Source of the DNA: Escherichia phage vB_EcoM-pEB20
Sequence record: OP114733
DNA length: 64,000 bases
Strand: one strand, 5' to 3'
Numbering within the stretch: the stretch's first letter is position 1; every line of letters begins with the position of its first letter. The notes below the pieces were generated by a model that worked only from the letters and a program-made list of their open reading frames with translations, was not told the origin of the DNA and did no database searches. Below, piece after piece: positions 2,419-41,448 of this stretch. Made by a program: the position numbers and the translations under genes.

Positions 2419-3519
2419 ATGAAAGTTATGTTTATCCCATCTCGCGCAGTCCCATTTAACCCAGAACGTGTACAAGGTGGTCTTGAAGCAGTACATTTAA
2501 ATGTGTTGAAATATCTTGTGTCCATCGGTGCTGATATTGATTATATCGGCTTTGATAATGACACGTTTGGTGACTGGAAGGTTAATCATCATCCTGTTGG
2601 TCATCTGACTAAATTCAGTCTAGGTATGAGTTATACTATGGCTCGTAAGATTGTTGAACTAGCCGGCATTAATGAGTACGATTTCGTTGTTACAATGGAA
2701 CCGACCAAACTAACCGTTCAGGCAATTAAAGACGCGGGTCTCTCTAAAGTTCATAAGAATTTTATGGCAACACCATTTGAACCGGTATCTCGTGGCATTG
2801 TTCAAATTTGGGACCAGACTATTCAAATTCATAAGAACGGTGGTAAGAGTTATGCTCCTACTAAAGCCTTCCGTGAATTTGAACGCAAATATTGTTATAT
2901 GACTTCAGGTCTGACTGACAAAATTGATTATGATTATTGGCGAGCAAATCCGTTGTTTGAAGCCGAAGATTATCCGGTTATTTGTTTGAATGATAAACCT
3001 GAAGTTCTTCCGGCGACTGATCTGATTATTAGTGCACAACGTTATGACACTAAAATGCGTCGTACTGATGTTGCTCTTGAAGCGATTAAAGCACTAGGCG
3101 AAAATGGTGTAGGATACTGTCCTAGTAAATGGGCACCACCGGCTAAGTATCCTGTTATTATTGATGCTCCACACAGTGAAATCATGGAACGTCTTAAAAC
3201 AGCTAAAGCACTTATCAATACGTGTCCTGACACGGGTACGGTAGAGAATAGTTCTATTGAAGCCATCTCTAAAGGTGTCCCTGTGATTCAGTTAGTTTTT
3301 AAGGATTATCCTCATGCGACATTCGAATACGACCCAGATACTATGCGTGTAGAAATTGATTCCTCTACTCCTAAGAAAGAAGTAGTTGCGCTTTACACAA
3401 AAGCTGTATTAGAATTCACTGACACATACGAAGCTCGAGTTAAACGTGCTGAAGCAGTATGGAAGAAGTATAACCGAGATGCAGTTGTTGGGATGTGGGA
3501 TAAAATCTTCACAGCGTAA
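2419..3519 (+). CDS. GT-B-like glycosyltransferase candidate (possible hmC-DNA sugar transferase)
   Basis: 366-aa ORF; MKVMFIPS N-terminus and C-terminal TVENSSIEAISKGVPVIQ resembling the nucleotide-sugar-binding motif of GT4-type enzymes; sits where T4 has gene 60/mobA; fold assignment is by eye. Confidence 0.5.
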   Translation: MKVMFIPSRAVPFNPERVQGGLEAVHLNVLKYLVSIGADIDYIGFDNDTFGDWKVNHHPVGHLTKFSLGMSYTMARKIVELAGINEYDFVVTMEPTKLTVQAIKDAGLSKVHKNFMATPFEPVSRGIVQIWDQTIQIHKNGGKSYAPTKAFREFERKYCYMTSGLTDKIDYDYWRANPLFEAEDYPVICLNDKPEVLPATDLIISAQRYDTKMRRTDVALEAIKALGENGVGYCPSKWAPPAKYPVIIDAPHSEIMERLKTAKALINTCPDTGTVENSSIEAISKGVPVIQLVFKDYPHATFEYDPDTMRVEIDSSTPKKEVVALYTKAVLEFTDTYEARVKRAEAVWKKYNRDAVVGMWDKIFTA

Positions 3520-36994: not shown

Positions 36995-38081
<1,087 letters not shown>

Positions 38082-38763: not shown

Positions 38764-38793
38764 GTTTACAACATGGTGGAGTTGTGATACTAT
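38764..38793 (+). promoter_or_regulatory. early promoter (GTTTAC-N18-TACTAT)
   Basis: consensus match; inverted repeat GGTGGAGTT/AACTCTACC brackets the -10. Confidence 0.55.
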
Positions 38794-38821: not shown

Positions 38822-39058
38822 ATGCTAAGTGAAAACCCAATTACAGTACACGAATTTCAGATTAAAGTAAAAGAATTTGCTCAAGCACTCATCAATAAAG
38901 TGTCTGAACGTTTCCAAGATGCAACATTACGAGTTATTCAAGAATCTCCACGTTCTTTTCTCATAATCGTTAATCCTAAAGATGGTGACCAAATTACTAA
39001 TCTTAAATTAGGCAGTGATGGTCTTGTTGAAGCAACTCGAGTATATGGAACACTATAA
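38822..39058 (+). CDS. hypothetical protein (78 aa)
   Basis: ORF with GAGGAAA RBS and its own early promoter. Confidence 0.5.
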   Translation: MLSENPITVHEFQIKVKEFAQALINKVSERFQDATLRVIQESPRSFLIIVNPKDGDQITNLKLGSDGLVEATRVYGTL

Positions 39059-39178
39059 TGAGAGCTATCTCATTACTATCGAGAATGGTCATAAATCTGA
39101 GCACTACCAACTTAGCCTGTCTAATCCGGTTAAAGGTATTGTTGAATCAGAATCTGTTTATATCTCCTAAGGATTGTT

Positions 39179-40171
39179 ATGTTACCTGTCGTCGGAAAAC
39201 TTATTTCTCCAAAAGAACTGGCTGAGATTATTCCTTTGTCGGAAGCTTACGCATCACAAGTGGCTTCTCATCGCGAACAAGTTAATTCGATTATGAATGG
39301 TGAAGACCCACGCAAACTTATTGTTGTAGGTCCTTGTTCAATTCATGACCCTATTGCTGCTGTTGAATACGGCAAACGTCTGGCTGAACTTCAAACTCGT
39401 CTTCCTAATGTTCTGTTAGTGATGCGCGTTTATTTTGAAAAGCCTCGAACTACCGTAGGTTGGAAAGGTCTTGTAAATGATCCATATCTTGACGGAAGTT
39501 TTGATATGAACCACGGTCTTATAGTTGCACGAACATTGTGTCGTAAACTTCTACGTATGGGACTTCCATTAGCAACTGAAGTATTAGACCCATTCACGAT
39601 TAAGTATCTTTCTGGTATTTTCTCATGGGTTGCTATTGGCGCCCGTACGACTGAAAGTCAGACACATCGTGAAATTGCTTCAGGTCTACCGATGTGCGTA
39701 GGCTTCAAGAACGCAACCAATGGTTCTATTAAAGTAGCTACAGACGCGATGTATAGTGCCGCCTGGCCTCATCGGTATATGGGTATGGACGTCGATGGTA
39801 CTGTAGGCATTGTTGAAGCTGAAGGTAATCAGAATACGCATATCGTATTGCGTGGCGGGACCAACGGCCCGAACTATCATTCTTCTGATATTCAAGAAGC
39901 TTCTAACAAAGCAAGGGCAGTAGGTCTGAATCATTATGTAATGGTTGACTGTAGCCATGCAAACGCTGCCGGGCATTATAGCAATCAAATTGGTATTGGT
40001 AAAAATTTAGCAGCTAATGATTTGGTCAAAGGAATTATGATAGAATCATTCCTACATGAAGGAAATCAAAAAATTTCTGATAATATGTCCTATGGCGTTT
40101 CCGTTACCGATGCGTGCATCAGTTGGGAACAAACTAAAGAGCTGTTAACTTATATTAATAAGGTTCAATAA
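39179..40171 (+). CDS. 3-deoxy-D-arabino-heptulosonate 7-phosphate (DAHP) synthase, AroG-like
   Basis: 330-aa ORF; LIVVGPCSIHDP and RVYFEKPRTTVGWKGLVNDP motifs, IGARTTESQTHRE, HEGNQ, DACISWE all align with recalled E. coli AroG; TAATG-coupled to cd. Confidence 0.88.
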   Translation: MLPVVGKLISPKELAEIIPLSEAYASQVASHREQVNSIMNGEDPRKLIVVGPCSIHDPIAAVEYGKRLAELQTRLPNVLLVMRVYFEKPRTTVGWKGLVNDPYLDGSFDMNHGLIVARTLCRKLLRMGLPLATEVLDPFTIKYLSGIFSWVAIGARTTESQTHREIASGLPMCVGFKNATNGSIKVATDAMYSAAWPHRYMGMDVDGTVGIVEAEGNQNTHIVLRGGTNGPNYHSSDIQEASNKARAVGLNHYVMVDCSHANAAGHYSNQIGIGKNLAANDLVKGIMIESFLHEGNQKISDNMSYGVSVTDACISWEQTKELLTYINKVQ

Positions 40172-40752
40172 TGAAAGCTAGCACATACCTTCAGATTGCA
40201 TATCTGATTTCTCAAGAATCAAAATGTTGTTCATGGAAAGTTGGCGCAGTCATTGAAAAAGATGGACGCATTATTTCTACAGGTTATAATGGCTCTCCTT
40301 CAGGTGGTACAAACTGTTGCGAACATGCATCCGAAAACGGTTGGTTGAAGAATAAACCAAGCCCGGTCATCGTTGCTGGTCATAAAGAAGGTACTACAGC
40401 ATTTGGACGGGTGGATAATTTTGTTTTGGCTAAAGAACATCGAGCGGCTCATAGTGCATGGTCTGCTAATAATGAAATCCATGCTGAACTGAATGCAATT
40501 TTATTTGCAGCTCGTAAAGGTAATTCTATTGAAGGTGCTACGTTGTATACGACGCTTTCTCCATGTCCTGATTGCACTAAAGCTATTACACAGTCAGGTA
40601 TTAAAAAGGTTGTATACGCAGAATTATATGACAGATCTCCTGAAAATTGGGCAGACATTCTAAAACAAGCCGGTATTGAAGTAATTCAGTACTCTCGTAA
40701 TAATCTTCGTTCTCTGAATTGGGAACAAATCCGAAACTTTTGTGGTGAATAA
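40171..40752 (+). CDS. cd: dCMP deaminase
   Basis: 193-aa ORF; MKASTYLQIAYLISQESKCCSWKVGAVIEK...SPCPDC zinc-binding motif; matches recalled T4 Cd. Confidence 0.93.
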   Translation: MKASTYLQIAYLISQESKCCSWKVGAVIEKDGRIISTGYNGSPSGGTNCCEHASENGWLKNKPSPVIVAGHKEGTTAFGRVDNFVLAKEHRAAHSAWSANNEIHAELNAILFAARKGNSIEGATLYTTLSPCPDCTKAITQSGIKKVVYAELYDRSPENWADILKQAGIEVIQYSRNNLRSLNWEQIRNFCGE

Positions 40753-41050: not shown

Positions 41051-41107
41051 TATGCTTTACGAATAGTATGGTATTATTAATCTATCGTCAAACAACAAGG
41101 AAATAAG

Positions 41108-41440: not shown

Positions 41441-41448
41441 TATAAATA
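41441..41448 (+). promoter_or_regulatory. late promoter TATAAATA upstream of rIII
   Basis: exact octamer immediately after gene 31 stop. Confidence 0.5.

What the first reader, a model, noticed from the sequence alone, without database searches (positions are those of the whole stretch)
39179..40171. Phage-encoded AroG-like DAHP synthase translationally coupled to dCMP deaminase
The sequence shows a 330-aa ORF with unmistakable type I-alpha DAHP synthase motifs (GPCSIHDP, RVYFEKPRTTVGWKGL.NDP, IGARTTESQ.HRE, HEGNQ). It is inserted between the small ORFs downstream of pseT and cd, and its stop overlaps the cd start (TAATG). T4 has only small cd.x ORFs here. DAHP synthase is the committed, feedback-inhibited first step of the shikimate pathway; chorismate feeds aromatic amino acids and, via pABA, folate. 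The neighbours frd, td and cd are nucleotide/folate-metabolism genes, so a deregulated entry enzyme could raise folate or aromatic precursor supply during infection. The N-terminal segment before the GPCSIHDP motif appears about 8 residues shorter than my recollection of E. coli AroG; the N-terminus contributes to the allosteric site, so feedback insensitivity is plausible but unproven. Whether it is functionally linked to the glycosyltransferase at 2419 is open.
Basis: partly seen in the sequence, partly recalled or inferred. Interest (0 to 1): 0.7.

Follow-up and report, generated by a model that had tools for sequence, protein, structure and literature searches.

The report
Phage DAHP synthase, likely feedback-insensitive
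This T4-like coliphage carries an intact copy of the enzyme that opens the aromatic amino-acid (shikimate) pathway; the gene is already annotated in over 200 phage genomes, but its regulatory pocket is rebuilt in a way that probably lets it ignore the host's feedback brake.

Summary
Window 39179-40171 (+) encodes a 330-aa type I-alpha DAHP synthase whose stop overlaps the dCMP deaminase start (TAATG). All metal, PEP and E4P residues are intact, the AF2 model matches solved DAH7PS structures (TM 0.94) and dN/dS is 0.15-0.2.

It is not new. An identical protein is annotated in GenBank, 212 phage records carry it, and PHROGs lists it as an auxiliary metabolic gene. It sits at the same pseT-cd locus in at least six T4-like genera and forms one clade (bootstrap 200/200).

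The added finding concerns regulation. The only seven positions that are conserved in bacteria but differently fixed in the phage clade all line the amino-acid inhibitor pocket (AroG P150I, Q151K, D155G, L156I, S180P, F209Y, T223A). The N-terminal inhibitor-contacting residues are also deleted. An independent Aeromonas-phage lineage changed the same positions. A constitutively active, early-expressed entry enzyme is therefore the best reading, but it is unproven.

The gene is dispensable: RB69 and about five other Mosigviruses lack exactly this 1.1-kb cassette. No obligate link to cd, folate genes or the arabinosyl-DNA module was found.

The parts
39179..40171 (+). CDS, 330-aa type I-alpha DAHP (3-deoxy-7-phosphoheptulonate) synthase, AroF-like lineage
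39599..39604 (+). codons I141-K142 (= AroG P150, Q151): inhibitor-pocket replacements fixed in the phage clade. K142 mimics the yeast feedback-resistant ARO4-Q166K allele
39614..39619 (+). codons G146-I147 (= AroG D155, L156): loss of the Asp that the review describes as salt-bridging and stabilising the inhibitor-site helix
39689..39691 (+). codon P171 (= AroG S180 / AroF S181, which contacts the inhibitor main chain; S180F is feedback-resistant)
   Evidence: the same S->P change in the Aeromonas phage HJ05 lineage
39776..39820 (+). regulatory beta6a/beta6b hairpin codons Y200 to A214 (= AroG F209 to T223). The hairpin is retained but F209Y and T223A are fixed
39169..39173 (+). Shine-Dalgarno AAGGA, 5 nt before the ATG
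40169..40173 (+). TAATG stop/start overlap with cd
40171..40752 (+). cd, dCMP deaminase (downstream neighbour, not shown to be functionally linked)
38765..38793 (+). sigma-70-type promoter (TTTACA-17-TACTAT, TG-extended), sequence homologue of the T4 early promoter Pe133295 between cd.3 and cd.2. Probable source of the early transcript covering cd.2, the synthase and cd
39045..39170 (+). 41-aa ORF (phrog_15876, unknown function) that belongs to the same indel cassette
39055..39067 (+). left copy of the 13-nt direct repeat ATAATGAGAGCTA bounding the 1113-bp cassette that RB69 lacks
40168..40180 (+). right copy of the direct repeat ATAATGAAAGCTA (12/13 identical)

Best explanation
The ORF encodes a catalytically competent type I-alpha DAHP synthase (PEP + erythrose-4-phosphate -> DAHP + Pi) of AroF-like descent. 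An ancestor of several T4-like genera acquired it long ago, and it has been inherited at the cd.2/cd.1 position ever since. It is transcribed with the pre-replicative pseT-cd gene block, probably from the homologue of T4 early promoter Pe133295, and has its own Shine-Dalgarno sequence. Its amino-acid inhibitor pocket and N-terminus have been rebuilt, so that Tyr, Phe and Trp most probably no longer inhibit it. After infection it would therefore add constitutive entry flux into the host shikimate pathway. Host AroB through AroC must finish the pathway, because no other aro gene is evident in the window annotation. This flux would be independent of host feedback inhibition and of TyrR/TrpR repression. 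The most likely benefit is to sustain Phe/Tyr/Trp and other chorismate-derived products for virion production under some growth conditions. The gene is accessory, not essential. Shown: gene, family, intact active site, fold, purifying selection, vertical inheritance, pocket remodelling, natural gene-less relatives. Inferred: feedback insensitivity, early expression, physiological benefit.
For: Family and active site. All metal (C61, H268, E302, D326), PEP (R92, K97, A164, R165, K186, R234) and KPRT residues are invariant in 24/24 phage-clade representatives. Fold: AF2 pLDDT 91, TM 0.93-0.95 to solved DAH7PS. Selection: dN/dS 0.15-0.22 between genera. Old resident: GC3 is 29.6 % like the flanking phage genes, against 50-57 % for E. 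coli aroF/aroG. The locus is the same in Mosig-, Marfa-, Braga-, Winkler-, Kanagawa- and Kagamiyamavirus, and the clade is monophyletic in 200/200 NJ bootstraps. Deregulation: an unbiased scan for columns conserved in bacteria but differently fixed in phages returned only seven columns: P150I, Q151K, D155G, L156I, S180P, F209Y and T223A. Five (P150, Q151, D155, S180, F209) are named as inhibitor-site residues in the papers read here; L156 and T223 I assign to the site from adjacency and recalled structure. P150L, S180F and F209A/S are known feedback-resistant AroG mutants, and Q151/Q152 and S180/S181 contact the inhibitor (PMC9529685). Gln->Lys at this site corresponds to yeast ARO4-Q166K. The N-terminus is 48-52 residues in all 24 phage sequences against at least 58 in all 95 bacterial ones, which removes AroG D6/D7 = AroF N7/N8. 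Convergence: the independent Aeromonas phage HJ05 lineage has an intact active site and changes at P150, Q151, D155, L156, S180 (again to Pro) and F209. Four of those positions (P150, L156, S180, F209) are among its own 21 discriminating columns, an overlap of 4 of 7 with P = 3.8e-4, and it is not sister to this clade. Expression: promoter homology and no + strand terminator before cd.
Against: No enzyme assay, transcript or metabolite data exist for any phage homologue in the literature I could search. The remodelled pocket is more conserved than the rest of the protein (15/18 positions against 134/330; P = 1.8e-4). That fits a locked active conformation, but equally a pocket that still binds some ligand. 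D146 and L179 are retained, and the Tyr-type Gly at AroG position 211 is present, so residual Tyr binding is not excluded. RB69 and about five other Mosigvirus isolates lack the gene and are viable, so any benefit is conditional. T4, on the same hosts, does without it. Why unregulated flux should help when host enzymes could simply be released from inhibition is not explained by the sequence.
Confidence: 0.6

Rival explanations
1. It is an ordinary feedback-regulated isozyme (Tyr-sensitive, as many GenBank records label it) that simply raises DAHP synthase dosage during infection.
For: Closest solved relative is AroF. Gly at the AroG-211 position as in Tyr-regulated enzymes, D146 and L179 retained, regulatory hairpin present. 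GenBank labels say 'aroF, Tyr-sensitive', but these are transferred by homology.
Against: Three residues reported to contact the inhibitor or to give resistance when mutated are replaced in 23-24 of 24 phage sequences. The N-terminal contact residues are deleted. None of the 95 nearest bacterial homologues shows this combination.
Confidence: 0.12
2. The allosteric pocket has been repurposed: it binds a different effector (for example a nucleotide or a phage-specific metabolite), so that shikimate entry is tied to the phage's own metabolic state.
For: Pocket positions are significantly more conserved within the phage clade than the protein average (15/18 against 41 %). This shows selection on the new residues rather than decay.
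Against: The independent HJ05 lineage changed the same positions to different residues (A, H/S, P, F, P, V against I, K, G, I, P, Y). That argues for disabling the site rather than for a common new ligand. No candidate ligand follows from the sequence. Conservation can also reflect packing needed for a stable active state.
Confidence: 0.12
3. The enzyme serves the arabinosyl-5-hydroxycytosine DNA modification, or pentose-phosphate rerouting. It would act as an E4P/PEP sink, or would compensate for competition by arabinose-5-phosphate, rather than supply aromatic compounds.
For: The window phage belongs to a genus with arabinosylated DNA made from ribulose-5-P (PMC13326640). It carries the arabinosyltransferase (2419-3519), and its closest relative carries the isomerase. 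Several genera have both genes.
Against: RB69, the reference arabinosylating phage, lacks the synthase. 57 Acinetobacter and 6 Yersinia phage records have the isomerase, and no genuine Acinetobacter phage synthase was found: the two of the four 'Acinetobacter phage' hit records inspected are bacterial contigs. 25 Klebsiella and 7 Proteus phage records have the synthase, yet neither genus appears among the listed or sampled isomerase or transferase hits. None of three papers on the pathway mentions the gene.
Confidence: 0.07
4. It has a shifted substrate specificity (for example arabinose-5-P + PEP, KDO8P-like chemistry) or another non-shikimate product.
For: Pfam PF00793 also covers KDO8P synthases. 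From my own knowledge, E. coli DAHP synthase accepts five-carbon sugar phosphates poorly.
Against: The best NCBIfam models are all DAHP synthase models. The KPRT motif and every active-site residue are unchanged, and no phage-specific substitution lies in the active site.
Confidence: 0.03
5. It is a decaying or selfish passenger gene without function.
For: It is dispensable in RB69 and a few other isolates, and the cassette is flanked by short direct repeats.
Against: dN/dS is 0.15-0.22 over synonymous distances up to saturation. The catalytic residues are invariant. The gene is retained in roughly 90 % of related coliphage records and in at least six genera. Its composition is fully ameliorated.
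Confidence: 0.03

Closest known systems
E. coli AroF (Tyr-sensitive DAHP synthase; PDB 6AGM/6AGL) and AroG (PDB 1KFL, 1QR7)
   Same: 51 % / 47 % identity over the full length. Same fold (TM about 0.94). Identical metal, PEP and E4P residues. N-terminal extension and beta6a/6b hairpin present.
   Different: 8-9 residues shorter at the N-terminus. The inhibitor pocket carries I, K, G, I, P, Y, A in place of P, Q, D, L, S, F, T. It scores below the NCBIfam cut-offs of the AroG- and AroH-specific models.
Engineered or selected feedback-resistant alleles: AroG P150L, S180F, F209A/S; yeast ARO4-Q166K
   Same: Substitutions at the same positions. Gln->Lys is the very change of ARO4-Q166K.
   Different: Here several such changes plus an N-terminal truncation are combined, are natural, and are fixed across a whole phage clade. 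Their effect is predicted, not measured.
PHROG phrog_5045 and the GenBank annotations in Mosigvirus and related phages (e.g. vB_EcoM-172859UKE1 QZI80077.1, Shf125875 'AroG', phiC120 ORF64)
   Same: Same gene. 100 % identical protein in MZ234025 and PP400782. E 5.9e-182 to the PHROG.
   Different: None. This is the family it belongs to. No functional study of it was found.
Aeromonas phage HJ05 DAHP synthase (H10PHJ05_6)
   Same: Phage-borne, with an intact active site and non-canonical residues at the same pocket positions, including S180P.
   Different: Only 38 % identical. It is a separate acquisition (sister grouping 19/200), has a long instead of a short N-terminus, and lies in a 79-kb non-T4-like phage.
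Cyanophage pentose-phosphate and carbon auxiliary metabolic genes (e.g. talC); comparison from my own knowledge
   Same: A virulent T4-like phage carries a single host-derived central-metabolism enzyme that relies on the rest of the host pathway.
   Different: Different pathway and different hosts. The claim here is loss of allosteric control rather than a kinetic variant.

Membership tests
Type I-alpha DAHP synthase (AroF/G/H; TIGR00034, PF00793) | Scores above the curated HMM cut-offs | tested here: met
   TIGR00034 427.5 bits (cut-off 173.2); NF009395 455.2 (343); PF00793 252.1 (25.5)
Type I-alpha DAHP synthase (AroF/G/H; TIGR00034, PF00793) | Metal ligands Cys61, His268, Glu302, Asp326 (AroG numbering; residue roles from my own knowledge of the 1QR7/1KFL structures) | tested here: met
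   C53, H260, E289, D311; invariant in 24/24 phage and 95/95 bacterial sequences
Type I-alpha DAHP synthase (AroF/G/H; TIGR00034, PF00793) | PEP-binding Arg92, Lys97, Ala164, Arg165, Lys186, Arg234 and the KPRT motif for E4P | tested here: met
   All identical
Type I-alpha DAHP synthase (AroF/G/H; TIGR00034, PF00793) | (beta/alpha)8 barrel with N-terminal extension and beta6a/6b hairpin | tested here: met
   AF2 pLDDT 91.2, pTM 0.91; strands 198-203 and 209-214; TM 0.93-0.95 to 4HSO, 3TQK, 1KFL
Type I-alpha DAHP synthase (AroF/G/H; TIGR00034, PF00793) | Canonical aromatic-amino-acid inhibitor pocket (P150, Q151, S180, F209 and others, plus N-terminal D6/D7 or N7/N8) | tested here: not met
   I141, K142, P171 and Y200 replace them, and the N-terminal residues are absent. 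This is a regulatory feature, not a catalytic one.
Type I-alpha DAHP synthase (AroF/G/H; TIGR00034, PF00793) | DAHP synthase activity in vitro or complementation of an aroFGH mutant | not testable with these tools
   No experimental report was found
AroG-specific / AroH-specific equivalogs | Score above the isozyme-specific NCBIfam cut-off | tested here: not met
   AroG NF006723 364.1 < 568; AroH NF009396 385.7 < 463
Tyr-regulated (AroF / Aro4-like) subtype | Gly at the Ser/Gly specificity position (AroG S211 / AroF G212; role from my own knowledge, cf. the N. meningitidis S213G variant listed) | tested here: met
   G202, as in all 95 nearest bacterial homologues. This shows descent from the Tyr-type lineage, not that Tyr still binds.
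PHROG phrog_5045 (phage phospho-2-dehydro-3-deoxyheptonate aldolase, AMG category) | Full-length HMM match | tested here: met
   E 5.9e-182, residues 1-330 on profile 8-337/341
KDO8P synthase (KdsA) | Best match to KdsA models, and an A5P-type motif instead of KPRT (motif from my own knowledge) | tested here: not met
   Only DAHP synthase models match; KPRT is retained
Arabinosyl-5-hydroxycytosine DNA modification module (Afh-type genes, arabinose-5-P isomerase, arabinosyltransferase) | Co-occurrence with, or location in, the module | tested here: not met
   In the closest relative (MZ234025) the synthase lies about 63 kb from the isomerase gene and, in the window, about 36 kb from the arabinosyltransferase. 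The distributions differ in both directions, and RB69 lacks it.

The most novel reading that the evidence does not exclude
The remodelled but strongly conserved pocket is not merely dead. It would be a new allosteric site that lets a phage- or infection-specific metabolite control carbon entry into the shikimate pathway. Independent phage lineages would have converged on capturing and rewiring this host control point.
Probability: 0.12. Interest if true: 0.65.

Novelty: already known. Interest (0 to 1): 0.33.

Why it matters
The gene itself is catalogued, so its presence is not a discovery. If the predicted feedback insensitivity holds, two things would be worth having. First, it would be a clear case of a virulent enterobacterial phage overriding a classic host allosteric control point in amino-acid biosynthesis, apparently evolved twice. 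Natural gene-plus and gene-minus phages of the same species (172859UKE1 against mar005P1) are available to test the benefit. Second, it would be a naturally optimised, multiply substituted feedback-resistant type I-alpha DAHP synthase, of possible use for producing aromatic compounds.

Tried and rejected
(1) Link to arabinosyl-5-hydroxycytosine DNA modification. I compared the distributions of the synthase, the arabinose-5-P isomerase (E. coli KdsD and phage queries) and the arabinosyltransferase. They are decoupled, and RB69 lacks the synthase.

(2) A chorismate- or prephenate-derived cofactor for the cytosine 5-hydroxylase. Rejected, because that enzyme uses a flavin and O2 (PMC13326640).

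(3) The folate-demand argument. It is weakened because these phages make 5-hydroxy-dCMP with a flavin enzyme rather than hydroxymethyl-dCMP with folate, and frd/td are about 10 kb away.

(4) The 'Acinetobacter phage MD-2021a' aroF hits. The two records inspected are bacterial contigs carrying cob, clpA and argC genes, not phage DNA.

(5) Pseudogene or decay. Rejected by dN/dS and invariant catalytic residues.

(6) A MotA-type middle promoter or a terminator directly flanking the gene. None was found; the nearest MotA box is at 41051, before gene 31.

(7) A close bacterial donor. None was found. The best non-phage homologues are 50-55 % identical and come from many phyla.

(8) Ten literature searches for a functional study of a phage DAHP synthase. 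They found only a passing domain mention for phiC120.

Full report
OBSERVATION. The window carries an ATG-initiated ORF at 39179-40171 (+) of 330 codons. It cannot be extended upstream in frame. An AAGGA Shine-Dalgarno sequence lies 5 nt before the ATG. The TAA stop (40169-40171) shares its last base with the ATG of the next ORF. That next ORF is a dCMP deaminase, and pseT lies upstream (Pfam). The ORFs between pseT and the synthase are homologues of T4 cd.4, cd.3 and cd.2. T4 itself has cd.5 to cd.1 and no synthase at this locus.

WHAT IT IS. The protein matches Pfam DAHP_synth_1 at 5.7e-75. It matches the NCBIfam aroFGH equivalog TIGR00034 at 427.5 bits (cut-off 173.2) but falls below the AroG- and AroH-specific cut-offs. 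Its closest solved relatives are E. coli AroF (E 1e-104), N. meningitidis DAH7PS and E. coli AroG. Identity to AroF, AroG and AroH is 51, 47 and 44 %.

I aligned it with the three E. coli isozymes and 119 cluster representatives (A1). All metal ligands (AroG C61, H268, E302, D326), all PEP ligands (R92, K97, A164, R165, K186, R234) and the KPRT motif are identical in the window protein and in all 24 phage-clade representatives. The roles of these residues are from my own knowledge of the AroG structures. An AlphaFold2 model (pLDDT 91.2, pTM 0.91) superposes on type I-alpha DAH7PS crystal structures with TM 0.93-0.95 and retains the regulatory beta-hairpin. It is a DAHP synthase in every feature that sequence can test.

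IT IS ALREADY KNOWN AS A GENE. tblastn finds it in 212 phage records. The protein is 100 % identical in Escherichia phage vB_EcoM-172859UKE1 (Mosigvirus) and in FL31. Annotations include 'AroG', 'aroF Tyr-sensitive', 'DAHP synthetase' and 'putative aldolase'. PHROGs lists the family (phrog_5045) under auxiliary metabolic genes. The phiC120 genome paper mentions the domain in passing (PMC8022965). Ten full-text searches found no functional study.

EVOLUTIONARY CONTEXT. The gene sits at the same place, between pseT/cd.2 and cd, in six genera:
- Mosigvirus
- Marfavirus (Klebsiella)
- Bragavirus (Proteus)
- Winklervirus (Serratia, Erwinia)
- Kanagawavirus (Edwardsiella, Enterobacter)
- Kagamiyamavirus (EcS1)

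Amino-acid identity to the window protein across these genera is 58-77 %. In three of the genera, cd.1 homologues lie between the synthase and cd. The ancestral order was therefore cd.2 - synthase - cd.1 - cd, and the direct abutment to cd is a secondary Mosigvirus, Marfavirus and Kanagawavirus state.

The phage sequences form one clade (NJ bootstrap 200/200). The nearest non-phage proteins are only 50-55 % identical and come from many phyla, so no donor can be named. GC3 is 29.6 %, like pseT (32.0) and cd (23.7) and unlike E. coli aroF/aroG (50-57), so the gene is fully ameliorated. dN/dS between genera is 0.15-0.22. This is an old, vertically inherited gene under purifying selection.

IT IS ACCESSORY. 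RB69, a Mosigvirus 96-97 % identical on both flanks, lacks window 39068-40167. In RB69 the cd.2 stop overlaps the cd start with the same TAATG. The missing 1113 bp comprise a 41-aa ORF plus the synthase. They are bounded in the window by the 13-nt direct repeat ATAATGA(G/A)AGCTA (39055-39067 and 40168-40180). Loss by recombination between these repeats is the simplest history.

A junction probe finds the gene-less allele in 11 records. These are RB69 x2, vB_Eco_mar005P1 x5, JK42, JK36, moha and ECO111 5-P, that is, about six isolates. They include the exemplar of the species to which the window's closest relative belongs. The TAATG overlap is therefore a property of the cd start, not evidence of a special synthase-cd coupling.

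THE REGULATORY SITE. I scanned A1 without prior choice of positions. I asked for columns at least 85 % conserved in the 98 non-phage sequences and at least 85 % conserved as a different residue in the 24 phage sequences. Only seven columns qualified: AroG P150->I, Q151->K, D155->G, L156->I, S180->P, F209->Y and T223->A.

All seven belong to the amino-acid inhibitor site. According to PMC9529685:
- P150L, S180F and F209A/S give feedback-resistant AroG.
- Q151/Q152 and S180/S181 contact the inhibitor's main chain in AroG and AroF.
- D155 forms a salt bridge that stabilises this region.

In yeast Aro3, Q159 (= AroG Q151) is one of two key inhibitor-binding residues (PMC10349828). By the +7 numbering offset between Aro3 and Aro4, this residue is Aro4 Q166. 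Its Gln->Lys allele is used as a deregulated enzyme (PMC6512747). That Q166K is feedback-resistant is my own knowledge. No phage-specific change lies in the active site.

In addition, every phage sequence has 48-52 residues before the catalytic Cys, against at least 58 in all 95 bacterial ones. This deletes AroG D6/D7 = AroF N7/N8. From my own knowledge, these residues contact the inhibitor across the dimer, and AroF N8K and N-terminal truncations are Tyr-insensitive.

The new pocket is not drifting. 15 of 18 pocket positions are at least 95 % conserved in the phage clade, against 134 of 330 overall (P = 1.8e-4). That fits a locked active conformation or, less likely, a new ligand.

CONVERGENCE. 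Aeromonas phage HJ05 (79 kb, not T4-like) and three metagenomic relatives carry a DAHP synthase that is only 38 % identical. It is not sister to the window protein (19/200 bootstraps; 9/200 without pocket columns). It keeps all catalytic residues but has P150A, Q151H/S, D155P, L156F, S180P and F209V. Four of the seven Straboviridae-specific columns are among its 21 discriminating columns (P = 3.8e-4). Two phage lineages have therefore altered the same regulatory positions. This is the strongest indirect argument that escape from feedback is what phages select for. An unverified faecal 'bacteriophage' scaffold shows a similar pattern but was not pursued.

EXPRESSION. The intergenic sequence between cd.3 and cd.2 (38764-38793, TTTACA-17-TG-TACTAT) is a close homologue of the region that the T4 record marks as early promoter Pe133295. 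No + strand terminator-like site lies between it and cd. No MotA box or late promoter precedes the gene; the nearest are at 41051 and 41441. Early, pre-replicative expression in a cd.2-synthase-cd transcript is inferred, not shown.

WHAT IT IS NOT LINKED TO. This genus makes arabinosylated 5-hydroxycytosine DNA from ribulose-5-P (PMC6024577, PMC13326640). The window also carries the RB69 ORF003c-type arabinosyltransferase (2419-3519). I therefore tested a connection, and the evidence is against one:
- The arabinose-5-P isomerase occurs in 275 records, including Acinetobacter 57 and Yersinia 6, with no Klebsiella or Proteus among the listed counts or the 60 evenly spaced rows.
- The transferase occurs in 211 records, Escherichia/Shigella plus Acinetobacter.
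- The synthase occurs in 212 records, including Klebsiella 25 and Proteus 7.
- No genuine Acinetobacter phage synthase was found. The two 'Acinetobacter phage' hit records I inspected are bacterial contigs.
- RB69, moha and mar005P1 have the modification genes but not the synthase.
- The cytosine hydroxylase uses flavin and O2, not a chorismate-derived or folate cofactor.
- frd and td lie about 10 kb upstream.

An obligate link to DNA modification, to folate genes or to cd is not supported.

MECHANISM AND CONFIDENCE. The most likely account has these steps. An early-expressed, constitutively active DAHP synthase adds unregulated entry flux into the host shikimate pathway once host transcription is shut off. 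Host AroB to AroC complete the route. The benefit is conditional, probably supply of Phe/Tyr/Trp and other chorismate products when host DAHP synthases are repressed or inhibited.

My confidence by step:
- DAHP synthase identity: about 0.97.
- Loss of canonical feedback inhibition: about 0.7.
- The stated physiological benefit: about 0.4.
- The composite explanation: 0.6.

The rivals are a normally regulated extra isozyme, a repurposed effector site, a pentose-phosphate or arabinose-related role, altered substrate, and a non-functional passenger. They are weighed in the Rival explanations section.

VERDICT. This is a real, intact, correctly identified gene that is already annotated and catalogued. 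The proposed ties to cd, folate and the glycosyltransferase are not supported. Interest is moderate to low: the biology is testable and neat, but it is not a new kind of system.

Noticed in passing
window 39055-39067 and 40168-40180; L014 (RB69) junction at NC_004928 ~134251: A 13-nt imperfect direct repeat (ATAATGA[G/A]AGCTA, which includes the TAATG and the first codons of cd) bounds the 1113-bp cassette. RB69, mar005P1, JK36, JK42, moha and ECO111 5-P lack that cassette. This gives presence/absence polymorphism even within one Mosigvirus species.
   Followed up: yes
window 39045-39170: A 41-aa ORF (phrog_15876, unknown function) is conserved in HY126, ST0 and phi25-307. It is part of the same indel and overlaps the end of cd.2. 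It was not seen in the other genera.
   Followed up: partly
window 37182-38081: The full pseT ORF starts at GTG 37182 and contains the kinase P-loop (GCPGSGKST). The GenBank record of the closest phage (MZ234025) annotates a shorter 777-nt CDS that would lack it, whereas RB69 annotates 900 nt. This is probably a start-codon mis-annotation.
   Followed up: partly
window 2419-3519: A 366-aa ORF with no Pfam hit is the RB69 ORF003c-type DNA arabinosyltransferase (labelled 'putative hmC-arabinosyltransferase' in a BASEL phage). Acinetobacter phages carry two copies per genome at about 42 % identity.
   Followed up: partly
L019 4899-6062 (Aeromonas phage HJ05): An independent phage DAHP synthase has a 79-residue, His-rich N-terminal extension (MDNHHNKHHAEG...), an intact active site and a non-canonical inhibitor pocket. 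In GenBank it is annotated only as a hypothetical protein.
   Followed up: partly
L021, L022 (CAKLQH020000056.1, CAKLQH020000043.1): Contigs filed as 'Acinetobacter phage MD-2021a' in the phage collection carry cobalamin, clpA/clpS, argC and fadH genes. They are bacterial chromosome, so their aroF hits are not phage genes.
   Followed up: yes
L020 4782-5771 (MT837410.1, unverified faecal 'Bacteriophage sp.'): Another DAHP synthase homologue (36 % identity) has a short N-terminus and pocket changes D146Y, P150W, Q151G and S180D. Whether the scaffold is viral was not checked.
   Followed up: no
window 41051-41077 and 41441-41448: A strict MotA-box middle-promoter match (TATGCTTTA-N12-TATTAT) lies just upstream of gene 31 (41108). 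A late-promoter TATAAATA lies upstream of rIII (41565). Seven strict MotA-box matches occur in the whole window.
   Followed up: no
L008 2606-3322 (Proteus phage PM2): A homing endonuclease gene is inserted between pseT and the DAHP synthase in Bragavirus, so this locus is a hot spot for insertions.
   Followed up: no
GenBank annotations under hits H7-H9, H79, L011: The neighbouring cd gene is variously mislabelled 'ribD riboflavin biosynthesis protein', 'tadA' or 'tRNA-specific adenosine deaminase'. The synthase is labelled 'Tyr-sensitive' without evidence.
   Followed up: no
window ~2400-39200 versus MZ234025.1: The offset between window and record coordinates differs by 151 nt between the arabinosyltransferase (2419 vs 51446) and the synthase (39179 vs 88055). 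The window is therefore not identical to that record and contains at least one indel relative to it.
   Followed up: no
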